The notes under the pieces are model-generated. The model was not told the origin of the DNA. It saw only the letters and a list, made by a program, of their open reading frames with translations, and made no database searches. DNA of 11,466 nt, taken from Candidatus Omnitrophota bacterium. GTDB taxonomy: Bacteria; Omnitrophota; Gorgyraeia; Zapsychrales; Fredricksoniimonadaceae. Positions 934-11,466 of the stretch are shown here, piece after piece. Numbering within the stretch: the stretch's first letter is position 1; each line of letters opens with the position of its first letter. The stretch is from NCBI GenBank assembly GCA_037141995.1, contig JBAXBM010000050.1, positions 1 to 11,466 of the forward strand. The letters run 5' to 3'. Both the position numbers and the translations under genes were made by a program.

Positions 934-2130
934 ATGAATGTTACTTATTCGCATAGGGTTACAGAGATTCTTAGGAGCAGGCTTAAGGAGCCACGCAGGA
1001 CCATTCAAATTGTTCTTGGCCCACGGCAAGTGGGGAAATCAACCGCTGTTCGGGGGGTTCTAAAACAGCATGTTGGGCCGGTTGTTTATGCGTTAGCGGA
1101 TCAATCCATGCCACTAGGTTCAGAGTGGATCGCGCGTCATTGGGCTGAAGCGCGGTTGCAGGTTCAGAAAAATGAACGTGTGATCCTTGCGTTGGATGAA
1201 ATTCAGAAAGTCCCTGGTTGGACCAGTGATGTCAAGCGGCTTTGGGATGAAGATACATACAAAGAACGGGATATTCATGTTGTCCTGACGGGGTCTTCAG
1301 CGTTGACTTTGCAGAAAGGGCTTACGGAAAGTCTATTGGGGCGTTTTGAAGTGATCTGGATGCCGCATTGGTCTTTTGTAGAATGCCGGGATGCTTTCGG
1401 TTGGGGGCTTGAAGATTATTTCTTTTTCGGGGGATATCCTGGAGCAGTTGCTTATTGTCAGGATGAAGACCGTTGGCGTAATTATATGATGACGTCGATG
1501 ATCGAGCCGGTATTGACGCGTGATATCGCCCTGTTGACGACGGTACATAATCCCGCGCTATTGCGGAGATTATTGTTCCTGACGTGTGAATATGCTTCCC
1601 AGGAATTATCATACAGGAAAATCCAGGGAATATTTCAGGATGTCAGCAATACTGTGACGATCTCAGCCTATCAGCGAATGCTCGAACAGTCTTTCCTGAT
1701 AGCGGGTCTTCAGAAATGGTCGGGCGGTGCGCTTCAGAAACGAAATTCAAGCCCCAAGTGGCTGCCGTTGAACACCGGGCTTGTTACGGCTATTCAGAAT
1801 AAAAACAGAGCCGAGTTAAAGAATGATCCTGTATTCTTTGGTCGCCTCGTAGAAACGTCCATCGGGGCGCATCTTTTTAATCAGGCGATGCTTTTTAATT
1901 TTGAAGTTTATTATTGGCGTGACGGGAATATGGAGATTGACTTTATTTTCAGGAAAGGGAATAAACTGGTAGCCATTGAGGTGAAAAGTGGTTTGAATAG
2001 CGATACCAAGGCGTTTACAGTTTTTCTTAAGAAATATCCCGAGGCCAAAGTGATGCTTGTCGGAGGGCAAGGAATGCCTCTCGAAGAATTCCTAACAACA
2101 CCGATAAAAAGTTTTTTTGAGTCGATGTAG
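934..2130 (+). CDS. AAA+ superfamily ATPase, COG1373 type (AAA_14 N-terminal domain plus DUF4143 C-terminal domain)
   Basis: 398-codon ORF. Walker A GPRQVGKST, Walker B-like VILALDEIQ, and a central helical region typical of this family. The C-terminal EIDFIF...AIEVKSG resembles a D...E-x-K nuclease-fold motif. Confidence 0.88.
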   Translation: MNVTYSHRVTEILRSRLKEPRRTIQIVLGPRQVGKSTAVRGVLKQHVGPVVYALADQSMPLGSEWIARHWAEARLQVQKNERVILALDEIQKVPGWTSDVKRLWDEDTYKERDIHVVLTGSSALTLQKGLTESLLGRFEVIWMPHWSFVECRDAFGWGLEDYFFFGGYPGAVAYCQDEDRWRNYMMTSMIEPVLTRDIALLTTVHNPALLRRLLFLTCEYASQELSYRKIQGIFQDVSNTVTISAYQRMLEQSFLIAGLQKWSGGALQKRNSSPKWLPLNTGLVTAIQNKNRAELKNDPVFFGRLVETSIGAHLFNQAMLFNFEVYYWRDGNMEIDFIFRKGNKLVAIEVKSGLNSDTKAFTVFLKKYPEAKVMLVGGQGMPLEEFLTTPIKSFFESM

Positions 2131-2171: not shown

Positions 2172-2990
2172 ATGAAAATCATTCATAATCTGGTGTACTT
2201 TTTTTTATCAATAGCCCTGGCACAGTTGTTAACGGGAATTTTCATCCCAGCCTGTATCATCCTTTCTATTTATCTTCGAATGAAGAAAGGGATATCTCTT
2301 AAGGAATTCTGGAAGCATGTCCCTAACATTTATGTTTCTATGATTTCGAGTATTTACCCGTTGGTATTTCTGGGATTTCCCGCCTTGCGCCTGATGGCCA
2401 AGAATGCCGGGAAAGGCTCAGGCGGAACGGCCCCTTTTATCATCGATACGGCGAAGCTTCAGCCCGGGGATGTGATCCTGACGGGCAAGGAGCGTACGGG
2501 TGCGATACAGCTGGCGAATATCCTGTCGGCGGGGATCGAGCATTGCCAGTGGACGCATGCGTGCATTTATATCGGTGATGAAAAGGTCATTGAGGCCCAG
2601 GCCAATGGCAAGGGTGTTATTCAGACCAATCTGCGCACATTTTACCTGGACCAGGGGTATCGCCTGAAAGTTTTAAGGCATAAGTTTCTGCCGGTAGACA
2701 AGATGTCCAAAGTGCTTGCCTATTGTGCCCAGGAGAAGGATAAGAATGCTTCTTACGATACCTGGGGCGTTTCCTTTTATGTCCTTGCCGCCATGATCCC
2801 GCCCATGTTCAGCGCCTGGCTTGACGGTGATTTCGCCGAGAAGTTCTTTGATGTCAGGGATGCTTACTTTTGCTCCGAACTTATTGCCGACGCTTTCAAA
2901 GCCGCTGACTGTGCCGTATTCGGCGAAAAAAGCTGGCGTGTTAAGCCTTTGGATTTCGCCTTTAATCCGGTGTTTCATGAGGTGGTGTGA
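2172..2990 (+). CDS. Membrane-anchored permuted papain-like (NlpC/P60-related) hydrolase, YaeF/YiiX family (Pfam PF05708-like)
   Basis: 272-codon ORF with a strong SD (AAGGAG just upstream of ATG 2172). Two N-terminal hydrophobic helices. Then LQPGDVILTG...WTHACIYIGDEKVIEAQ...ASYD...YFCSELIADAF: the His precedes the Cys and the CSEL motif is present, as in the permuted YiiX family. It lies only 41 nt after the AAA+ gene. Confidence 0.78.
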   Translation: MKIIHNLVYFFLSIALAQLLTGIFIPACIILSIYLRMKKGISLKEFWKHVPNIYVSMISSIYPLVFLGFPALRLMAKNAGKGSGGTAPFIIDTAKLQPGDVILTGKERTGAIQLANILSAGIEHCQWTHACIYIGDEKVIEAQANGKGVIQTNLRTFYLDQGYRLKVLRHKFLPVDKMSKVLAYCAQEKDKNASYDTWGVSFYVLAAMIPPMFSAWLDGDFAEKFFDVRDAYFCSELIADAFKAADCAVFGEKSWRVKPLDFAFNPVFHEVV

Positions 2991-3000
2991 GGCGGTGGGG

Positions 3001-3069
3001 ATGAAATATTTTCATGGTTTTCTGCTTTTTTATGTGGCATACTTGTTTCTGGTGGGTTTTATCCAATAG
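3001..3069 (+). promoter_or_regulatory. Conserved intergenic element, copy 1 (shared with 4750-4817); candidate promoter/leader of the SPFH gene pair
   Basis: 3003-3069 aligns with 4753-4817 at roughly 83% identity (hand alignment, one 1-nt indel). It contains an AT-rich hairpin/palindrome ATGAAA-TAT-TTTCAT (3001-3015), a T-rich tract, and TGGCATACTTGTTTCT (3035-3050), a partial match to the sigma54 -24/-12 consensus TGGCAC-N5-TTGCW. There are exactly 17 nt from the end of the element to the ATG in both copies. Confidence 0.5.
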
Positions 3070-3086
3070 ACCAAAAGGACAGATAT

Positions 3087-4067
3087 ATGCAGAATGAACA
3101 GGGATTGATCTTTAAAGGGATATATGAGTTTGAAGATCCGCTTGGCGTTCTTGTTGCCGCTAAGGTTCCGTCGGTTGGTACCTTGGATCTTTATTCCGGG
3201 ACGGCTGTTTTGGTCAAGGCCAATCAGTGCGCGCTGTTTATTTATAACGGCAAGATCGCCGATATTTTGATGCAGGGCTTGCACGAGGTCAAGACCGAGA
3301 ATTTTCCGCTTTTAACGCGGCTGGCCAACTGGCAGTTTGGGTTTGAAAGTCCTCTCCGGTGTGAGGTATGGTTTTTTTCTGGCGCTGTTTACACCAACAG
3401 GCGCTGGGGAACGTCTCAGCCAGTGATCTGTGATTTTCCGGATCACGGGATAGTGCCGGTGAGGGCGTACGGGATCTTTAATGTGGTCATGCGTGATCCC
3501 AATAAATTTTTTATGACGTTGATCGGGACGCGCAATGCGTACGATATAACTGAACTTGAGGGTCTGGTTCAGGCTCAGATCACGGAAATTCTTCCTGCGG
3601 CCATGCATGTTGTCCCGTCACTTCAGGACTTAAACAAGTCACAGACGCTGGTGGCAAAAGAACTGCAGGGGTTGGTCAATAAAACGATCGAGCAATACGG
3701 CATTGAAATTGTGAGCCTGCAGGTGATCTCGATGATCCCGTCGAAAGAGATCATGGAGGCGCTCGATGCCAAGGCGTCCATGAACATCATCGGCAATAAA
3801 CAGGAATATCTGCTTTATAAGGCGGCCAACAGCTTGATCGGGAGTCATGAGGGTGGTCATGCGAAAGGTTCCAGTGATTCCATGCAGTTGATGATGGGGT
3901 TGATGCTCGGGAAAAGCCTCCTGGATGCCAAGGAAAAAGAGCACACCATGCTGCTGAAAACAGAAGAAGCGCCTCCGATGATTGAAACAAGGTCATGTTC
4001 AAAATGTAAAGCTGTTGTCAAAGCCAGCGACAAGTTTTGTGCGTCCTGCGGAACGGAGCTGAAATGA
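3087..4067 (+). CDS. SPFH/Band-7 family protein with C-terminal zinc ribbon (COG4260, Pfam Band_7_1, B. subtilis YdjI-like)
   Basis: 326-codon ORF with SD AAGGA about 8 nt upstream. N-terminal pattern GTAVLVKANQCALFIYNGKIADILMQGLHEVKTENFPLL...GFESPLRCEVWFFS...VRAYGIFNVVMRDPNKFF is typical of the YdjI-like SPFH family. The C-terminus CSKCKAVVKASDKFCASCGTEL is a CxxC...CxxC zinc ribbon. Confidence 0.85.
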   Translation: MQNEQGLIFKGIYEFEDPLGVLVAAKVPSVGTLDLYSGTAVLVKANQCALFIYNGKIADILMQGLHEVKTENFPLLTRLANWQFGFESPLRCEVWFFSGAVYTNRRWGTSQPVICDFPDHGIVPVRAYGIFNVVMRDPNKFFMTLIGTRNAYDITELEGLVQAQITEILPAAMHVVPSLQDLNKSQTLVAKELQGLVNKTIEQYGIEIVSLQVISMIPSKEIMEALDAKASMNIIGNKQEYLLYKAANSLIGSHEGGHAKGSSDSMQLMMGLMLGKSLLDAKEKEHTMLLKTEEAPPMIETRSCSKCKAVVKASDKFCASCGTELK

Positions 4068-4738
4068 ACTTTGATATCATATGCCCCAATTGTGGTGCGG
4101 CATCTTCCATTGTGGTGGGTGTTTGCCCGTATTGCAAGACGGTCTTGTCTATTAATTCTGAGAAAGGGGATCATTCTCTGTCGGCGGTGAAAGCAGCCCA
4201 TGAAGCCGGAAAAACGGACAGGTCTCTGTCACTGGTGACGGCACTTGAACAGGAAAAGCCGGAGCTGCTGGATAATATTGAATTTGTTTTGTTGTATACC
4301 AGAATTCTTTTTGAAGTGGATGGGCCTTCCAGCAAGATCAAGTCTTTGCTGACCAAAGCCCTGATCCTGGCGCCCGGTCATCCTGATGTGTTGGAATATC
4401 TGGAAGTGATCGAGGCCGAGTCCATGATGACCCGGGAGCCCAATGATGAAGGTGAACAGCGTCTCATGCGACTCATTCGCCGCTCGCCCAATAATGTTTA
4501 TGCGTTGTTTTTCCTCGGGAGTCATTTGTTTTGGGTTCAAGGAAACGGTGGTGCTGCCCTGAAGTATCTTGAGCCGTGCGTCAGGTTGCGCCCTAATTTT
4601 ATACGGGCCAAGGCCTGTTTGGCGATGATCTACAAGGAATTAAACAAGCCGGATATGGCTAAAAGATTTTTTGATGAGTGTGCCGCCAGCACATCGAGCA
4701 ATAGGACGAAGTCATTTTTCAAAAGGCTTACGGATTGA
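4064..4738 (+). CDS. Zinc-ribbon plus TPR-repeat protein
   Basis: I place the start at ATG 4064, forming an ATGA overlap with the upstream stop (TGA 4065-4067). The ORF track's 4037 start would add 9 codons overlapping the SPFH gene. N-terminus CPNCG...CPYCKTVL is a zinc ribbon. The C-terminal half has TPR-like helical repeats (ALKYLEPCVRLRPNFIRAKACLAMIYKELNKPDMAKRFFDECA). Confidence 0.8.
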   Translation: MNFDIICPNCGAASSIVVGVCPYCKTVLSINSEKGDHSLSAVKAAHEAGKTDRSLSLVTALEQEKPELLDNIEFVLLYTRILFEVDGPSSKIKSLLTKALILAPGHPDVLEYLEVIEAESMMTREPNDEGEQRLMRLIRRSPNNVYALFFLGSHLFWVQGNGGAALKYLEPCVRLRPNFIRAKACLAMIYKELNKPDMAKRFFDECAASTSSNRTKSFFKRLTD

Positions 4739-4749
4739 TGCTCTAGCGG

Positions 4750-4817
4750 CCAAAATATTTTTTGGTTTTTTGCCTTTCTATATGGCATACTTCTTTCGGG
4801 TGGATTTTATTCAATAG
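4750..4817 (+). promoter_or_regulatory. Conserved intergenic element, copy 2; candidate promoter/leader of the 703-aa gene
   Basis: Homologous to 3003-3069. Hairpin/palindrome CCAAAA-TATT-TTTTGG (4750-4765), a T-rich tract, and TGGCATACTTCTTTCG (4783-4798). There are 17 nt from the terminal CAATAG to ATG 4835, the same as copy 1. Confidence 0.5.
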
Positions 4818-4834
4818 TCTTAAGGGGGTTAAAG

Positions 4835-6946
4835 ATGTTGGAAAAACTGTATTCATTTGCCGGATTCCGGAAATTGATTTGTTGGTTGATGGCTGTTGTT
4901 TTTTTGACGGGATCAGTGATGCCCTTATATGCGCAGGGTGTGGCCGGCCTTTCATCTTCCGGGATGATGAACGTAAGCCGGACATTCACGCCGCCGATTG
5001 TCAGGGGGATGACGATTGATCCCAAGGATCCGTTTGCTTTTAAGTTTCTGATGGACCGCGGGGATGACAAGGGGTTGTCCCTGGAGGCTCGGACGGCAGT
5101 TTATGAGAAGTTGATCAAATATTTCATGGCGTCATTGGCGGTGCCGGAAGAAGATGTCTGGGTCAACCTTTCTCCCTATGAAGGGGATCGTTTGATCGCA
5201 GATAATTTTGGCATGACCGTTATGGGGCGCGACCTTCTGGAAATGGATTATGCGTTAAAGCGTGTCACGGCATCGTTATTTCATCCTGATCAGGAGCCGG
5301 GGAAGGCGTTCTGGAAGAAGGTTTATCAGGCGGCCTATGAACGTTATGGGACAACGGATGTGCCGGTCGATACGTTCAACAAGGTCTGGATCGTTCCGAG
5401 TGAGGCAAAGGTTTATGAGGACGGCAATTCTGTTATTCTGGTGAAAAGCCATCTCAAGGTCATGCTGGAGCAGGATTATTTGGCGCAGAAAAAGAATGCC
5501 GCGGTACACCCCGATAACAAGAATGATAAAGATTCCCAGTTTTCCCGCGATATTGTGCGTGAAGTCATGATTCCTATTCTTGAAAAAGAAGTCAATGACG
5601 GCGAAAATTTTGCAGTGTTACGTCAGATCACCGCATCGCTGATCCTTGCCACCTGGTATAAGAAAGCCTGGAAAGATGTTTTGTTGAACCAGGGATATAC
5701 GGATCATTCCAAGGTCAAAGGCGTTGACCAGGATCCTGCTAATAACCAGATTATCTACAACCAATATGTGGAAGCATTCAAGCAGGGCGCTGTGAATCTG
5801 GTCCGTGAAGAATATGATACGTTATCGCAGGAAATGATGCCACGGAAATATTTCTCCGGCGGTTACGGCACAAAGATGACAACAGATGATGGGCAGACAA
5901 CGTCTTTACAGCAACGATTAGAAGAAGTATCTCAGTCGCCGATGTTGGATCCAAAGAAAACGGAGTTGGTGGCGGCGTCTTTGATGCCAACGGCAAGAAC
6001 AACAGTTGCCGGGTTATTCCGACCTGTTTCACGCTTGGCGCTTCTTATTGTGTTGTGGACAGGGGCTTTCTTTCAACCAACGACAGCGGCTTTAGCAGAA
6101 TATAGAAGTACACAAAGTTTTACATATACGAACGGTTCTAGAACTCAAAAAATGGAGTTGATTGTTACTGATCCTGGCGTTGTTGTGACAGATGTGTGGG
6201 ATACTCAATCAAAGATGCTACGTGATTTCACGGATACTGTAAATACAGTAATTATAATGTCTAGGAGTAATGAGTTAGGGGCCTTAGATACACTTGGGAA
6301 GCTTGAAGCAAGAGTCAAAGCAGGGAAGGCCTCAGAAGAGGCGATATTGAAGGGGTTGGTTCAAAAGCAATTTGTTGCTTTATTAATGAATGGGAAAAAG
6401 CCTGTTGATATATCTCCGTTTCTTCAAGCGTATACTGATTGTTTGCAAGAGATAGGGCGGGTACGAAAGACTATAGACAACAATAATAAGATACGGGCTT
6501 ATAATGAAGCTGTGGAGCAGAATAATGCTAAAGCACGAGAATTCAATAAAAATCAAGCGAAGTATTCCTCTGTTGTGAAGGGGTATGTTGAGATTTTTAA
6601 TAAGAAGCAACGTGACCCAGTAGAAATGAAAAAATTATCGGTAAGCATAGGTCAACTTCTTGCGCAACCAGATTTGCCTTCAAATTTCAGGGCAACTCTT
6701 CAGCAAATTAAAACATGGATAGATAAGGCGGAGAATGTAAAGAAACCAAAGCTTGTGACAGATAAGAATCTTGGTGGTATTGATTTGAATGCCAATTCTT
6801 TTAACCTTGAGGTTGAATCGCGTAAGGAAGCCAGGGGCTTGGTGTCTCCTGTTTTGGTTGATCTTGTTGCCCTTGAAGGCTTGAGCCCACGGATATTGTC
6901 CGTCACGTCCGCCAGTGAATATGTAAAGATGTTTTCAGGAAAGTAA
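4835..6946 (+). CDS. Large secreted or membrane-associated protein of unknown function, with an N-terminal signal peptide and an internal hydrophobic segment
   Basis: 703-codon ORF with SD AAGGGGG 6-7 nt upstream. The N-terminus MLEKLYSFAGFRKLICWLMAVVFLTGSVMPLYAQG looks like a Sec signal peptide. A second signal-peptide-like segment lies at aa 384-421. The C-terminal third is Lys/Asn/Gln-rich and looks coiled-coil-like. No family recognised. Confidence 0.8.
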   Translation: MLEKLYSFAGFRKLICWLMAVVFLTGSVMPLYAQGVAGLSSSGMMNVSRTFTPPIVRGMTIDPKDPFAFKFLMDRGDDKGLSLEARTAVYEKLIKYFMASLAVPEEDVWVNLSPYEGDRLIADNFGMTVMGRDLLEMDYALKRVTASLFHPDQEPGKAFWKKVYQAAYERYGTTDVPVDTFNKVWIVPSEAKVYEDGNSVILVKSHLKVMLEQDYLAQKKNAAVHPDNKNDKDSQFSRDIVREVMIPILEKEVNDGENFAVLRQITASLILATWYKKAWKDVLLNQGYTDHSKVKGVDQDPANNQIIYNQYVEAFKQGAVNLVREEYDTLSQEMMPRKYFSGGYGTKMTTDDGQTTSLQQRLEEVSQSPMLDPKKTELVAASLMPTARTTVAGLFRPVSRLALLIVLWTGAFFQPTTAALAEYRSTQSFTYTNGSRTQKMELIVTDPGVVVTDVWDTQSKMLRDFTDTVNTVIIMSRSNELGALDTLGKLEARVKAGKASEEAILKGLVQKQFVALLMNGKKPVDISPFLQAYTDCLQEIGRVRKTIDNNNKIRAYNEAVEQNNAKAREFNKNQAKYSSVVKGYVEIFNKKQRDPVEMKKLSVSIGQLLAQPDLPSNFRATLQQIKTWIDKAENVKKPKLVTDKNLGGIDLNANSFNLEVESRKEARGLVSPVLVDLVALEGLSPRILSVTSASEYVKMFSGK

Positions 6947-7052: not shown

Positions 7053-7181
7053 GTTTAGCGCCTTGTGTGCTCGCCGCGCCGAGCGCCGAGTGCTTTTTCG
7101 CCTGGAACGAGGGGGTTTATCCCCCGAGAGAAGCCGAAAGAGTGGCGCGGTATGGCAGGCGAGAAATCGAATGCGCTAAAC
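7053..7181 (+). repeat. 129-nt structured intergenic element, copy A (candidate cis-regulatory or REP-like structured RNA; family not recognised)
   Basis: About 82% identical to 8965-9095. Five nested stems: P1 7053-7061/7173-7181, P2 7070-7075/7158-7163, P3 7076-7080/7144-7148, P4 7093-7100/7135-7142, P5 7111-7115/7121-7125. Four compensatory changes relative to copy B. Confidence 0.7.
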
Positions 7182-8960
7182 ATGCATAAAAAAACTTCGT
7201 TTCTTCCCATGTATCTTGATGAGATGGCGGCTCGGGGGTGGGGTGAGCTGGACGTTATTATCATCAGCGGCGATGCGTATGTGGATCATCCTTCCTACGG
7301 CACGGCATTGATCGGGCGTCTCCTGGAAAGCAAGGGTTATCGCGTGGGTATTATCGCCCAGCCGGACTGGCGGTCGCTGGATGATTTTACGCGCCTGGGG
7401 CGTCCGCGTTTGTGCGTTTGTGTGACGGCGGGCAATGTGGATTCCATGGTTGCCCATTACACGGCCAACAAGCGGCGGCGGCAGGGGGATGATTTTGCGC
7501 CGGGCGGCAAGGACGGCTTGAGGCCGGATCGTGCGGCGATTGTGTATGCTAATCGTGCTAAGGCGGCATTCAAGGGCCTGCCGGTGATCCTGGGCGGTGT
7601 TGAGGCCAGCATGCGGCGCTTGGCGCATTACGATTACTGGGATGATGCGGTGCGGCGTTCGGTATTGATCGATGCCAAGGCGGACATGATCATTTACGGC
7701 ATGGCAGAGCGGCCTGTTGTGGAAGTGATGGCGCGGCTGGCGCAGGGTGAGGCGATCGCAGCGATCCGTGATGTGCGCGGCACCGTGGTGCGTGTGAAGC
7801 CGGCGGAATTTCCTGCGGGGACGATAGAATTGCCGTCGTTTGAAGATATCAGCCGTGACCCTGAAATTTTTAACCAGGCATTTCGCCTGGCTTATGCGGA
7901 AATGTCGCCGGAAGACGGCAAGCCTTTGGCCCAGCGGCATGCGGATCAGTGTGTGCTGCAATTGCCCCCGGCATTGCCATTGACACCTCAAGAACTTGAC
8001 GCCGGTTATGATCTGGCGTATGCGCGCACATGGCATCCGTCGTATGATGCCTTGGGCGGCGTGAAGGGTTTAGAGACAGTGCGCTGGTCGATCACAGCGG
8101 TGCGCGGCTGTCCCGGGGAGTGTCATTTTTGCGGGATCACGTTCCATCAGGGGCGGATCGTGCAGAGCCGGAGCGTGGCGTCCATTGTGCGGGAAGCTGA
8201 AGGCCTCGCGCGCGACCCGGCGTTTCGGGGGACGATTCAGGATGTGGGCGGGCCGACAGCGAATTTATACGGTGCCAGTTGTGCCAATTGGAATAAAGGC
8301 CGGGTATGCCGCGGCAAGCAGTGCCTGATGCCATCGAAATGCCCGTCGCTGGATCTGGGGTGCCGGGAAGCGGTTTCCTTGTATGAAGCGATACGGCGTG
8401 TGCCGGGCATAAAACATATGTTCGTGCAGAGCGGTTTGAGGTATGATCTCTTGCTCGAACCGGCGGCGCTCGATTATTTCAAGGTGTTATGCCGTTATCA
8501 TGTCAGCGGGCAGATGAAGGTGGCTCCCGAGCATACATCCGACGAGGTTTTAGCGCTCATGAACAAGCCGCCCTATGCGCGGTATGAGGCTTTTGTCCGG
8601 CTTTTCAATGAGATCAATGCGGGGCTTGGCAAGAAGCAGTTTCTGGTGAATTATTTTGTCAGCGCGCATCCCGGGGCAGGGCTTAAGGAAGCGTTTGATT
8701 GTGCGTCAATGCTTTTATCCCGCGGGATGCATCCGGAACAGGTGCAAGATTTTCTGCCTTTACCCATGACGGTATCGGCGTGCATGTATCACACGGGGAA
8801 GCATCCTCTGACGGGCAAGAGTGTTTATGTGCCGCGGAAAGACAATGAACGCGCGATGCAGAGGGCCCTTGTGCAGTCGCAGAATCCTGGTAATGCGCCC
8901 TTGATTGACAAGGCGCTTAATATTTTAGGTAAACAGGGAGTTAAGAAAAAATTTAAATAA
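7182..8960 (+). CDS. ygiQ: YgiQ-family radical SAM protein (UPF0313)
   Basis: The N-terminus KTSFLPMYLDEMAARGWGELDVIIISGDAYVDHPSYGTALIGRLLESKGYRVGIIAQPDW closely parallels E. coli YgiQ (FLPMSREEMDQLGW...VTGDAYVDHPSFG...RVGIIAQPDW). Radical SAM CxxxCxxC motif CPGECHFC at 8109-8132. The start is uncertain. The ORF track begins at 7065, but codons 1-39 are a read-through of the repeat element. ATG 7182 is the first Met after it, and ATG 7152 is an alternative. Confidence 0.88.
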   Translation: MHKKTSFLPMYLDEMAARGWGELDVIIISGDAYVDHPSYGTALIGRLLESKGYRVGIIAQPDWRSLDDFTRLGRPRLCVCVTAGNVDSMVAHYTANKRRRQGDDFAPGGKDGLRPDRAAIVYANRAKAAFKGLPVILGGVEASMRRLAHYDYWDDAVRRSVLIDAKADMIIYGMAERPVVEVMARLAQGEAIAAIRDVRGTVVRVKPAEFPAGTIELPSFEDISRDPEIFNQAFRLAYAEMSPEDGKPLAQRHADQCVLQLPPALPLTPQELDAGYDLAYARTWHPSYDALGGVKGLETVRWSITAVRGCPGECHFCGITFHQGRIVQSRSVASIVREAEGLARDPAFRGTIQDVGGPTANLYGASCANWNKGRVCRGKQCLMPSKCPSLDLGCREAVSLYEAIRRVPGIKHMFVQSGLRYDLLLEPAALDYFKVLCRYHVSGQMKVAPEHTSDEVLALMNKPPYARYEAFVRLFNEINAGLGKKQFLVNYFVSAHPGAGLKEAFDCASMLLSRGMHPEQVQDFLPLPMTVSACMYHTGKHPLTGKSVYVPRKDNERAMQRALVQSQNPGNAPLIDKALNILGKQGVKKKFK

Positions 8961-8964
8961 TGGT

Positions 8965-9095
8965 ATTCAGCGCCCTGTGTTTTCGCCGCGCCAAGCGCCG
9001 AGTGCCTTTCCGCCTGGAACGAGGGGGCCGCAGCCCCCGAGAGAAGCCGGAAGGGTGGCGCGATAAGGCAGGCGAAAAGATCTGATGCGCTGAAC
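8965..9095 (+). repeat. 129-131-nt structured intergenic element, copy B
   Basis: Same architecture as copy A: P1 8966-8973/9087-9094, P2 8980-8987/9071-9078, P3 8988-8992/9057-9061, P4 9005-9012/9048-9055, P5 9023-9027/9034-9038. It starts 5 nt after the ygiQ stop and ends 31 nt before the ABC-F start. Confidence 0.7.
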
Positions 9096-10749: not shown

Positions 10750-11466
10750 CTATTTTAGTATTGTTATCAGTTCCTGCGGGGAAACGATGCGGACGAAATC
10801 GACGGCGCGGGGATGCTCGACCGGGCAGACACAATAACAGGGGACGTCAGGATATTCCGTGTGAAAGGCTTTAAGGCCTGTCAGGTCGCGCAGGCCAATA
10901 TGCGGGGTGGATTTGCATTCAATGGCATAGAGGATGGACGCTCCGCGGCTGATCAGCAGGTCAACTTCAGCTCCATTGTTTGTGCGCCAGAAGTTGAATT
11001 TCCAGTCGAGCTGGTGGTATTCATTGAGGTGTGTCAATTCCTGGATAACCCATTGTTCAAACAGTCGGCCTTGTTGGATCGGGTTGTTGTTGTCTCTAAG
11101 GGTTCCCAGGATCGAGCGGGTGACGCCATTATCAAAGAAGTAGAATTTCGGGCTATGGCTCATCCTTTGACGCAGGCTTTTCAAATAAGGGAAAATAAAA
11201 AAGCCGATGAGGGTATCTTCAAGGATGGCGTAATATTCCCGGACCGTTGATAATGAAACCTGGCATTCCCGGGAGACGGAAGAAAAATTGATCTGTTGGG
11301 CAAATTGAGCCGCCGCAATATCAAGAAAATTCTGAAACCCGTTAAGGTTTCGCACCAAAGCTTCGGCTTTGATTTCTTCGCTGAGGTAGGCAACGGTGTA
11401 GGCGCGCAGGAGATCTTGTGCCTGGTCCATTTTATTTTCCAGTAGCAGGCTGTAAATTCTTGGCAT
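10750..11466 (-). CDS. AAA+/DUF4143 ATPase paralogue, C-terminal ~238 aa only (the N-terminal ATPase domain probably lies beyond the window edge)
   Basis: The ORF runs to the window edge. YLSEEIKAEALVRNLNGFQNFLDIAAAQFAQQINFSSVSRECQVSLSTVREYYAILEDTLIGFF is the typical DUF4143 region. The C-terminal EVDLLI...AIECKST (10912-10968) repeats the D...E-x-K motif seen in the 934-2130 protein. No Walker A is visible, consistent with 5' truncation by the window. Confidence 0.82.
   Translation of the reverse strand: MPRIYSLLLENKMDQAQDLLRAYTVAYLSEEIKAEALVRNLNGFQNFLDIAAAQFAQQINFSSVSRECQVSLSTVREYYAILEDTLIGFFIFPYLKSLRQRMSHSPKFYFFDNGVTRSILGTLRDNNNPIQQGRLFEQWVIQELTHLNEYHQLDWKFNFWRTNNGAEVDLLISRGASILYAIECKSTPHIGLRDLTGLKAFHTEYPDVPCYCVCPVEHPRAVDFVRIVSPQELITILK

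What the first reader, a model, noticed from the sequence alone, without database searches (positions are those of the whole stretch)
3087..4738. YdjI-like SPFH/zinc-ribbon gene translationally coupled to a zinc-ribbon/TPR gene, with no PspA partner in view
The stop of the SPFH gene (TGA 4065-4067) overlaps the start of the next gene (ATG 4064-4066), the classic ATGA coupling that implies stoichiometric co-production. Both proteins carry a CxxC...CxxC zinc ribbon: C-terminal in the SPFH protein (CSKC...CASC) and N-terminal in the TPR protein (CPNC...CPYC). In B. subtilis the homologous SPFH protein YdjI is encoded with PspA and the zinc-ribbon protein YdjG. YdjI is needed to localise PspA at the membrane. 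Here no PspA/IM30-like coiled-coil gene is present in the window, and a TPR protein occupies the zinc-ribbon partner position. This suggests a variant of that stress module with a different client.
Basis: partly seen in the sequence, partly recalled or inferred. Interest (0 to 1): 0.55.

Follow-up and report, generated by a model that had tools for sequence, protein, structure and literature searches.

The report
Soluble SPFH scaffold with dedicated zinc-ribbon/TPR partner
Two overlapping genes in this Omnitrophota contig encode a membrane-scaffold-type (SPFH) protein and a small zinc-ribbon/TPR adaptor that always travel together in two bacterial phyla, which makes them a previously undescribed, PspA-independent variant of a known family of membrane-organising modules.

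Summary
ORF 3087-4067 is a Band_7_1 SPFH protein (Pfam E=7.5e-45) with a C-terminal CxxC-x10-CxxC zinc ribbon. Its TGA stop overlaps the ATG (4064) of a 224-aa protein with an N-terminal zinc ribbon and a TPR solenoid.

The pair is an autonomous two-gene module:
- In 23 non-redundant loci from Omnitrophota and Bdellovibrionota (including Bdellovibrio sp. HCB337), only these two genes are conserved.
- The NTGA start/stop overlap is kept in 23/23 loci, even with TTG or GTG starts.
- The two proteins co-diverge (Mantel r=0.86).
- Flanks are varied housekeeping genes. No PspA gene was annotated within 6-10 kb in the eight loci with Pfam calls.

A sister TPR family that lacks the zinc ribbon is never next to an SPFH gene (0/4), so I infer that the ribbon is the coupling element.

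Other Band_7_1 genes have other partners: YdjG/YdjH/PspA in Bacillus, and ZnR-DUF4178 with SpeD in Ralstonia and Gemmatirosa.

Best reading: a soluble SPFH scaffold plus a co-translated adaptor that recruits an unknown client. This is inferred, not shown. Novelty: new variant of a known kind. Interest is moderate.

The parts
3010..3078 (+). Promoter-like region and 5' leader of the SPFH operon; copy 1 of a 69-nt direct repeat. It contains an extended -10-like TGGCATACT (3035-3043).
   Evidence: 80% identical to 4758-4826; the motif aligns with TGnTATACT upstream of SPFH genes in L003, L009, L010, L014 and L021. Function is inferred.
3087..4067 (+). Gene for the 326-aa soluble SPFH protein (Band_7_1 family) with a C-terminal zinc ribbon.
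   Evidence: AF2 model pLDDT 76.8. Foldseek hits to stomatin, prohibitin, HflK/C, flotillin and QmcA at E down to 4e-9. No 19-residue window reaches a Kyte-Doolittle mean of 1.6 (maximum 1.17).
3195..3785 (+). SPFH/Band_7_1 domain (residues 37-233).
   Evidence: Pfam PF13421, E=7.5e-45, profile positions 13-210 of 211.
3876..3923 (+). Conserved Met/Gly-rich hydrophobic helix DSMQLMMGLMLGKSLL (residues 264-279, with a GxxxG motif). Candidate membrane-dipping or oligomer-packing segment.
   Evidence: M269, G271, M273, L274 and G275 are invariant in 35 homologues. Equivalent Gly/Ala/Met-rich segments occur in the Ralstonia, Nocardia, Butyrivibrio and Gemmatirosa Band_7_1 proteins. AF2 confidence is low here. 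Role is inferred.
3984..4061 (+). C-terminal zinc ribbon of the SPFH protein (residues 300-325; C304, C307, C318, C321).
   Evidence: Pfam Zn_ribbon_3, 31.1 bits. The four Cys are invariant. pLDDT is about 82.
4055..4058 (+). GGAG Shine-Dalgarno-like motif for the downstream gene, lying within the last codons of the SPFH gene, just after the ribbon's final CxxCG knuckle.
   Evidence: an SD-like 4-mer lies 7-16 nt upstream of the partner's start in 22 of 23 loci.
4064..4067 (+). ATGA start/stop overlap (translational coupling junction).
   Evidence: NTGA in 23/23 non-redundant loci.
4064..4738 (+). Gene for the 224-aa zinc-ribbon/TPR partner.
   Evidence: AF2 pLDDT 86.8, all-alpha solenoid from residue 39. 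Profile against PDB consensus TPR gives E=2e-14. No transmembrane segment.
4076..4144 (+). N-terminal zinc ribbon of the partner (residues 5-27; C7, C10, C21, C24). Proposed SPFH-coupling element.
   Evidence: The Cys are invariant. The sister family without this ribbon is not linked to SPFH genes.
4178..4732 (+). TPR-type helical solenoid (residues 39-223) with the family signature RRSPxNxxALFxLGSHLFW and RPNFxRAxACL.
4758..4826 (+). Copy 2 of the 69-nt promoter/leader repeat, in front of the next gene (4835-6946, a 703-aa protein with an N-terminal hydrophobic anchor). It suggests shared regulation. That gene is not a conserved part of the module.

Best explanation
The two genes form an autonomous, translationally coupled operon. 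It encodes a soluble Band_7_1 SPFH scaffold and its dedicated adaptor.

Shown:
- family membership of both proteins;
- absence of transmembrane segments in both;
- strict conservation of the pair and of its NTGA junction across two phyla;
- co-divergence of the two proteins;
- a perfect association between the partner's N-terminal zinc ribbon and linkage to an SPFH gene.

Inferred:
- The SPFH protein oligomerises like other SPFH proteins. It sits at the cytoplasmic face of the inner membrane through its SPFH domain and the conserved Met/Gly-rich GxxxG helix.
- The partner is made in similar amounts by termination-reinitiation at ATGA. It docks on the scaffold through its N-terminal zinc ribbon, perhaps against the scaffold's own C-terminal ribbon of identical CxxC-x10-CxxC spacing.
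- The TPR solenoid then presents a peptide-binding surface that recruits or restrains an unidentified client within the SPFH assembly.

The arrangement parallels YdjI/SamI with YdjG-YdjH, HflK/C with FtsH, and QmcA with YbbJ. It does not require an adjacent pspA.
For: - Band_7_1 153.6 bits and zinc ribbon 31.1 bits; TPR_19 and TPR_14 above their cut-offs.
- SPFH fold confirmed against stomatin, prohibitin, HflK/C, flotillin and QmcA. TPR fold confirmed.
- No transmembrane segment in either protein.
- The pair is present in every assessable related locus. Only these two genes are shared by 23 non-redundant loci.
- NTGA overlap in 23/23 loci with ATG, TTG or GTG starts; SD-like motif in 22/23.
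- Pairwise identities of the two proteins correlate at r=0.86, and 0 of 2000 Mantel permutations reached that value.
- The ZnR-less sister TPR family is homologous over the whole TPR body (hhalign 99.9%, E=5e-32). It has no Cys ribbon in any of 35 listed members. It has no SPFH gene called within 6 kb in 4/4 loci, and a tblastn check of three of them (L036-L038) found none either.
- All 35 aligned SPFH partners keep the four ribbon Cys.
- Band_7_1 proteins in other contexts pair with other proteins that begin with a zinc ribbon: DUF4178 in Ralstonia and Gemmatirosa, and YdjG in B. subtilis (PMC11237479). After family members, the best hits of an HMM of this partner's ribbon among 1536 ORFs were those two DUF4178 proteins (12-13 bits).
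- YdjI is soluble and needs partner proteins for membrane recruitment (PMC8581546). SamI acts independently of PspA in development (bioRxiv 10.64898/2026.02.06.704340).
Against: - No physical interaction, localisation or phenotype data exist for these proteins.
- Neither protein has a membrane anchor, so membrane association is only assumed from the family.
- The Ralstonia Band_7_1 protein has a SHOCT domain in place of a ribbon, yet still pairs with a ZnR-DUF4178 protein. A ribbon-to-ribbon contact is therefore not a general rule.
- The similarity between this partner's ribbon and the DUF4178 ribbons is weak (E=0.01 in a small database).
- The ZnR-less control rests on only four loci. Whether those genomes encode an SPFH protein of this family elsewhere is unknown.
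- No client is identified.
- AF2 confidence is low for both the partner's ribbon (residues 1-35) and the scaffold's tail (254-298).
Confidence: 0.5

Rival explanations
1. It is still a PspA module. pspA/IM30 is encoded elsewhere in these genomes. The SPFH-TPR complex recruits PspA to the membrane as YdjI does, with the TPR protein replacing YdjG/YdjH as the bridge.
For: Same SPFH family as YdjI, which binds PspA and is needed for PspA foci (PMC8581546). Band-7 proteins associate repeatedly with PspA systems, and abbreviated operons are proposed to work with a PspA encoded elsewhere (PMC11237479).
Against: No PF04012 gene was called within 6-10 kb in eight annotated loci, and none lies in the window. 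In the polyamine-type operons the Band-7 protein replaces the PspA dyad rather than accompanying it. SamI has PspA-independent functions. Genome-wide presence of pspA in the carriers could not be tested.
Confidence: 0.15
2. It is a protease- or turnover-regulating module. The SPFH ring corrals a membrane protease such as FtsH, as HflK/C does. The ZnR-TPR protein acts as a LapB-like substrate adaptor.
For: Foldseek places the SPFH model next to HflK/C-FtsH structures. The partner gives weak hits to Zn_ribbon_LapB (E=0.0026) and to the LapB NCBIfam model (18.3 bits). LapB likewise combines TPRs with a rubredoxin-type metal site (family knowledge).
Against: The LapB score is far below its cut-off (18.3 vs 474). 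The domain order is reversed and there is no transmembrane anchor. No ftsH or other protease gene is conserved nearby. The SPFH protein lacks the transmembrane helix and the long coiled-coil wall of HflK/C.
Confidence: 0.12
3. It is a mobile anti-phage defence or toxin-antitoxin-like pair.
For: It is a compact two-gene cassette with variable flanks. A PADLOC candidate gene (PDC-S01, AAA_14/DUF4143) lies upstream in the window, in L003 and in L020.
Against: Neither protein hits PADLOC. The partner has no match in 72,556 plasmids, and the SPFH protein has a single weak match in 50,697 phage records. Flanks are core genes: rpsF-rpsR-rplI-dnaB, groES/EL, nusA-infB-rbfA-truB. The two genes co-diverge, and their divergence follows the phylum split.
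Confidence: 0.04
4. The adjacency has no functional meaning. It is only tight gene packing in small genomes, and the two proteins work separately.
For: 4-nt ATGA overlaps are the commonest overlap type in bacteria (general knowledge). Omnitrophota genomes are compact.
Against: Linkage in 23/23 loci across two phyla while every other neighbour changes. The overlap is retained with non-ATG starts. The proteins co-diverge. Linkage is lost exactly in the ribbon-less sister family.
Confidence: 0.04

Closest known systems
B. subtilis PspA-YdjGHI (PspA-SamGHI) operon; YdjI/SamI is the SPFH component
   Same: Same Pfam family (Band_7_1). Both are soluble SPFH proteins with a hydrophobic low-complexity segment and a C-terminal zinc finger. 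Both are encoded with a partner that begins with a CPNC-type zinc ribbon at about residue 7; the ydjG primer sequence in PMC8581546 reads MIISYKCPNC. SamI acts as a scaffold or brake on its partners, and part of its function does not need PspA.
   Different: There is no pspA here. There is no YdjH (TPM-domain membrane protein). The partner has one ribbon plus TPRs, where YdjG has two ribbons, an NTF2-like domain and a transmembrane segment. The partner gene lies downstream and overlaps, where ydjG lies upstream. Neither protein is membrane-integral. The carriers are Omnitrophota and Bdellovibrionota, not Firmicutes.
Polyamine-type Band_7_1 operons (DUF350 - Band_7_1 - ZnR-DUF4178 - SpeD), seen here in Ralstonia and Gemmatirosa and described in PMC11237479
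   Same: A Band_7_1 SPFH protein with a Gly/Ala/Met-rich segment and a C-terminal adaptor (ZnR or SHOCT), followed by a partner whose N-terminus is a CPxCGA...CxxC(K/R)S zinc ribbon. These operons contain no pspA.
   Different: The partner's body is a DUF4178 beta-rich domain (with a C-terminal hydrophobic segment in the Ralstonia protein), not TPRs. These operons also carry DUF350 and AdoMet decarboxylase genes. The genes do not overlap. The SPFH proteins score much higher against PF13421 (244-250 bits, against 154 here).
HflK/C-FtsH and QmcA-YbbJ (SPFH-NfeD) assemblies
   Same: SPFH fold (Foldseek E 1e-6 to 2e-8; QmcA profile hit E=5e-5). The SPFH gene is co-transcribed with a dedicated partner. 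The general logic is a ring or cage that organises a client.
   Different: Those SPFH proteins have N-terminal transmembrane anchors and long coiled-coil walls, and their partners are membrane proteins (FtsH, NfeD). This pair has no anchor, no NfeD and no protease gene.
LapB (YciM)
   Same: It combines TPRs with a Cys4 rubredoxin-type metal site and works at the cytoplasmic face of the inner membrane as an adaptor. Weak Pfam and NCBIfam hits were obtained.
   Different: Scores are far below the cut-offs. The metal site is C-terminal in LapB and N-terminal here. LapB has an N-terminal transmembrane helix and about nine TPRs. LapB is not linked to an SPFH gene.

Membership tests
Pfam Band_7_1 (PF13421) / COG4260-type SPFH proteins | Significant match to the family HMM above the gathering score | tested here: met
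   153.6 bits against a cut-off of 24, E=7.5e-45, profile positions 13-210 of 211. The score is lower than for the Ralstonia and Gemmatirosa members (244-250 bits), so this is a divergent subfamily.
Pfam Band_7_1 (PF13421) / COG4260-type SPFH proteins | SPFH alpha/beta fold | tested here: met
   AF2 model with pLDDT 87-97 over most of the SPFH core, dipping to 69 around residues 81-90. Foldseek hits to stomatin, prohibitin, HflK/C, flotillin, erlin and QmcA.
Pfam Band_7_1 (PF13421) / COG4260-type SPFH proteins | No transmembrane anchor; hydrophobic low-complexity segment followed by C-terminal zinc ribbon(s) or SHOCT | tested here: met
   Maximum KD19 of 1.17. The MQLMMGLMLGK helix and the C304/C307/C318/C321 ribbon are invariant. 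Other family members show the same layout, and so does YdjI.
PspA-YdjGHI / SamGHI envelope-stress module | pspA (PspA_IM30) gene in the same operon | tested here: not met
   No PF04012 hit for any window ORF. None was called within 6-10 kb in eight annotated related loci.
PspA-YdjGHI / SamGHI envelope-stress module | YdjG-type partner: two zinc ribbons + NTF2-like domain + transmembrane segment | tested here: not met
   The partner has one ribbon and a TPR solenoid, with no transmembrane segment. Only the N-terminal CPNC ribbon resembles YdjG (primer sequence). No YdjG sequence was available for a direct alignment.
PspA-YdjGHI / SamGHI envelope-stress module | YdjH-type TPM-domain membrane protein | tested here: not met
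   No TPM_phosphatase hit in the window or in the annotated loci.
PspA-YdjGHI / SamGHI envelope-stress module | Induction by envelope stress (sigma-W regulon) and PspA recruitment to the membrane | not testable with these tools
   This needs expression and localisation experiments. Only a sigma-70-like extended -10 motif is seen upstream.
TPR proteins | TPR HMM matches and a helical-hairpin solenoid | tested here: met
   TPR_19 29.2 bits (cut-off 25) and TPR_14 24.0 bits (cut-off 23.5). The family profile matches consensus TPR structures at E=2e-14 and MamA at 1e-8. AF2 predicts 12 helices with pLDDT above 90. Foldseek hits OGT, MamA, PEX5 and APC subunits.
LapB/YciM | Match to the equivalog model; N-terminal transmembrane helix; C-terminal rubredoxin after the TPRs | tested here: not met
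   NCBIfam 18.3 bits against a cut-off of 474. No transmembrane segment. The ribbon is N-terminal.
SPFH-NfeD / HflK-HflC operons | Membrane-anchored SPFH protein with an NfeD or a second SPFH paralogue as partner | tested here: not met
   No transmembrane segment. No NfeD or second Band_7 gene in the window or in related loci.
Polyamine-type Band_7_1 operon | DUF350, DUF4178 and AdoMet decarboxylase genes next to the SPFH gene | tested here: not met
   None of these families is present in the window. They are present in the Ralstonia comparison locus, and DUF4178 and an AdoMet-decarboxylase-like ORF in the Gemmatirosa one.
Known anti-phage defence systems (PADLOC) | Match to a PADLOC model | tested here: not met
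   No hit for either protein at E<=0.01.

The most novel reading that the evidence does not exclude
Band_7_1 SPFH proteins may be a general soluble scaffold chassis whose client is chosen by a swappable partner. Each partner would plug in through a short N-terminal CPxCGA...CxxC zinc ribbon and carry a different working module: NTF2-like + TM in YdjG, DUF4178 in the polyamine operons, TPR here. The Omnitrophota/Bdellovibrionota pair would be the minimal, fully soluble, PspA-free form of this system. It is restricted to two lineages that are described as predatory, where it could organise a membrane process specific to that lifestyle.
Probability: 0.25. Interest if true: 0.6.

Novelty: new variant of a known kind. 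Interest (0 to 1): 0.42.

Why it matters
SPFH proteins are universal membrane organisers. How the soluble Band_7_1 branch (YdjI/SamI) finds its partners and clients is still unclear.

This module reduces the problem to two small soluble proteins. It also offers a natural control: a sister TPR family that lost both the zinc ribbon and the SPFH linkage. If the ribbon is the docking element, that gives a testable rule for how Band_7_1 scaffolds are wired to different partners. It would also show that the family works without PspA.

One carrier, Bdellovibrio sp. HCB337, has a complete genome and appears to be an isolate, so experiments are possible. The practical significance remains modest until a client or phenotype is known.

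Tried and rejected
1. Sigma-54 promoter. The TGGCAT-N5-TTTC in both copies of the 69-nt repeat looked like a -24/-12 element. The pattern is not enriched (6 matches against 4.4 expected). It lacks the -12 GC. It aligns with the extended -10 TGnTATACT of relatives' upstream regions. Rejected.

2. Further copies of the promoter/leader element. Two metagenome scans found nothing.

3. Rfam scan of the window at E<=1: no hits.

4. Defence or mobile-element origin. No PADLOC hits for the pair. No plasmid match for the partner. One weak phage match for the SPFH protein.

5. A third conserved gene. All-against-all clustering of flanking ORFs from 23 loci found none. AAA_14/DUF4143 recurs in only 3 loci, and MsrA/MsrB in only 2.

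6. Met-rich helix as a TPR-specific ligand. Weakened, because similar Gly/Ala/Met-rich segments occur in Band_7_1 proteins that have other partners.

7. Fused SPFH-TPR proteins. None appeared among the 150 best of 1.84 billion representatives. L027 looks like a deletion pseudogene or a misassembly.

8. Co-folding the pair was not possible with the tools. The afdb50 fold library was unavailable.

9. Direct alignment with YdjI/YdjG and a genome-wide pspA search in carrier genomes were not possible.
Full report
**Source and observation.** The partner protein is 100% identical to an NCBI entry from a Candidatus Omnitrophota MAG whose longest contig is 11,466 nt.
- An ATG at 3087 opens a 326-codon ORF that ends at TGA 4065-4067.
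- ATG 4064-4066 opens a 224-codon ORF that ends at 4738, so the junction reads ATGA.
- The ORF listing offers an upstream TTG (4037). However, 24 homologues all start at the residue that corresponds to ATG 4064.
- Both Cys4 patterns are present and invariant: C304/C307/C318/C321 in the first protein and C7/C10/C21/C24 in the second.

**Identity of the two proteins.**
- Pfam places the first protein in Band_7_1 (153.6 bits, cut-off 24) with a C-terminal Zn_ribbon_3 (31.1 bits).
- Its AF2 model (pLDDT 76.8, SPFH core mostly 87-97) matches stomatin, prohibitin, HflK/C, flotillin, erlin and QmcA. The family profile hits QmcA by sequence.
- The second protein passes the TPR_19 and TPR_14 cut-offs. 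Its family profile matches consensus TPR structures at E=2e-14.
- Its AF2 model (pLDDT 86.8) is a 12-helix solenoid preceded by a low-confidence ribbon. Fold matches are generic peptide-binding TPRs: OGT, MamA, PEX5, APC subunits.
- Neither protein has a transmembrane segment (maximum KD19 of 1.17 and 1.53).

**Conservation of the pair.**
- The partner family is small and sharply bounded. A word-indexed search found 84 close homologues. Among 1.84 billion representatives, only 33 clusters score E<=1e-30 before generic multi-TPR proteins take over, and there are no fusion proteins.
- Every related locus that can be assessed has the SPFH gene immediately upstream. The carriers are Omnitrophota and Bdellovibrionota (Bdellovibrionia, Oligoflexia), including Bdellovibrio sp. 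HCB337 with a 4.28-Mb chromosome (L028).
- Clustering all flanking ORFs from 23 non-redundant loci shows that only these two genes are shared.
- Flanks are diverse core genes: rpsF-rpsR-rplI-dnaB, groES/EL, nusA-infB-rbfA-truB.
- The NTGA overlap is kept in 23/23 loci, including two TTG and two GTG starts. A GGAG-like motif within the last codons of the SPFH gene, at or just after the ribbon's CxxCG knuckle, lies 7-16 nt upstream of the partner's start in 22/23.
- Pairwise identities of the two proteins correlate at r=0.86, and 0 of 2000 Mantel permutations reached that value. The genes are therefore inherited and diverge together.

**The discriminating control.** The representative search also revealed a sister family of about 224 aa.
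- It is homologous over the whole TPR body (hhalign 99.9%, E=5e-32).
- Its N-terminus has no cysteine ribbon in any of 35 listed members.
- In four of four loci these genes stand alone. No SPFH gene is called within 6 kb, and a tblastn check of three of them (L036-L038) found none either.
- Ribbon presence and SPFH linkage therefore coincide perfectly: 23/23 against 0/4.
- This is the strongest available evidence that the ribbon is the coupling element. It is correlative, and the control is small.

**Wider family context.** The plasmid collection shows Band_7_1 genes in other settings.
- In the Ralstonia megaplasmid the order is DUF350, Band_7_1 (with a C-terminal SHOCT), ZnR-DUF4178, SpeD. 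In Gemmatirosa a Band_7_1 protein with a C-terminal ribbon is followed by a SpeD-like ORF and ZnR-DUF4178.
- These match the polyamine-type operons of Ravi et al. (PMC11237479), in which the Band-7 protein replaces the CesT/Tir-PspA dyad.
- The same paper describes the Bacillus operon as PspA + YdjG (two ribbons, NTF2-like, TM) + YdjH (TPM) + a Band-7/ZnR protein.
- All these SPFH proteins share a Gly/Ala/Met-rich hydrophobic segment after the SPFH domain. Here it is the invariant MQ(L/M)MMGLMLGK helix with a GxxxG motif. That segment is thus a family feature, not a TPR-specific ligand.
- The partners in all three contexts begin with a CPxCGA...CxxC ribbon. An HMM of the present partner's ribbon, searched against 1536 ORFs from all loci, finds the two DUF4178 proteins as the best non-family hits (12-13 bits). 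It does not find the SPFH C-terminal ribbons. This is suggestive only.

[quoted passage not shown] It needs YdjG and YdjH for membrane recruitment and is required for PspA foci (PMC8581546).
- A 2026 preprint renames the proteins SamGHI and shows a PspA-independent role for SamI as a brake on SamG-SamH.
- The present module shares the SPFH family and the zinc-ribbon theme. It fails every other defining feature of that operon: no pspA, no TPM protein, no NTF2-like or transmembrane partner, and a different gene order.
- It works like a Band_7_1 scaffold-plus-partner system. It is not a member of the PspA-YdjGHI module.

**Mechanism.**
- Shown: family assignments, solubility, obligatory linkage, the coupling signal, co-divergence, and the ribbon-linkage correlation.
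- Inferred: the SPFH protein oligomerises at the inner face of the membrane. The partner is co-produced by termination-reinitiation and docks through its ribbon. The TPR surface recruits or restrains an unknown client.
- Rivals: a remote pspA, a LapB/HflKC-like protease-adaptor role, a defence cassette, and meaningless adjacency. The last two are disfavoured. The first two cannot be excluded.

**Regulation and side observations.**
- A 69-nt repeat (80% identical) precedes both the SPFH operon and the next gene, which encodes a 703-aa protein with an N-terminal hydrophobic anchor and no family hits.
- The TGGCATACT in that repeat aligns with extended -10 motifs upstream of related SPFH genes. 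It is not a credible sigma-54 site.
- The 703-aa gene is not a conserved neighbour. A homologous segment does occur in a 1391-aa protein 3 kb upstream of the pair in L003.

**Novelty and score.** I found no paper describing an SPFH/ZnR-TPR pair, and database names are generic. It is a new variant of a known kind: a Band_7_1 scaffold with a new, lineage-restricted partner. Both carrier phyla are described as predatory (bioRxiv 10.1101/2023.11.21.568195; PMC10469934 and PMC12724312 for Bdellovibrionota). That may be coincidence, shared ancestry or gene transfer, and no test was possible. Interest is moderate (0.42). The comparative signal is clean and gives a testable docking rule, but no function or client is known.

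Noticed in passing
window 3010-3078 and 4758-4826: A 69-nt direct repeat (80% identical) lies just upstream of the SPFH operon and of the 703-aa gene. It contains an extended -10-like TGGCATACT and a conserved leader, GGTGGRTTTTATYCAATAG. This suggests shared regulation or a recent promoter duplication. No other copies were found in two metagenome scans.
   Followed up: partly
window 7054-7165 and 8966-9078: A GC-rich repeat of about 112 nt (89% identical) lies upstream of the ygiQ radical-SAM gene and the ABC-F gene. RNAalifold predicts a long hairpin (-51.8 kcal/mol; 3 of 35 pairs compensatory between the two copies). There is no Rfam match. It could be a REP/MITE-like element or an undescribed leader RNA.
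   Followed up: partly
window 4835-6946: A 703-aa protein has an N-terminal hydrophobic anchor or signal and no Pfam, NCBIfam or PADLOC hit. Residues 18-348 are 48% identical to part of a 1391-aa protein that lies 3 kb upstream of the SPFH pair in the Omnitrophota locus L003.
   Followed up: partly
window 934-2130 and 10750-11466 (-): An AAA_14/DUF4143 ATPase gene matches the PADLOC candidate defence family PDC-S01 at E=4e-151. A second gene, cut by the contig end, carries the DUF4143 domain only. A homologue also sits upstream of the pair in L003 and L020.
   Followed up: no
window 7065-8960: The listed YgiQ ORF starts at GTG 7065, inside the GC-rich repeat. The Pfam match begins at residue 46, so the true start is more likely the ATG near 7185 (MHKKTSF...).
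   Followed up: no
L027 4188-4669: In a 'Planctomycetales' MAG contig, SPFH residues 182-266 run straight into partner residues 116-223 in another frame. An internal deletion spans the gene junction, so this is a pseudogene or a misassembly.
   Followed up: partly
L013 3444-4445: The SPFH gene of this Bdellovibrionales MAG is interrupted by an in-frame TAA at 3996-3998, while the partner gene is intact. This is a pseudogene or a sequencing error.
   Followed up: no
L036 4426-6675, L038 4468-6675, L030 9170-12244: The ZnR-less sister TPR genes lie divergently next to rmuC in two of four loci. rmuC also lies about 1 kb downstream of the SPFH/ZnR-TPR pair in L030. This may be a remnant of shared synteny.
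   Followed up: no
L003 1415-1921 and 8657-8824; L028 11642-12235: Methionine sulfoxide reductase genes (MsrB/SelR, MsrA) flank the pair in two loci. This is intriguing given the invariant Met-rich helix of the SPFH protein, but the genes are not conserved in the other 21 loci.
   Followed up: partly
window 2172-2990: A 272-aa protein combines N-terminal hydrophobic helices with a permuted papain-like C92 (YaeF/YiiX) amidase domain. It lies directly upstream of the SPFH operon and is not conserved next to the pair elsewhere.
   Followed up: no
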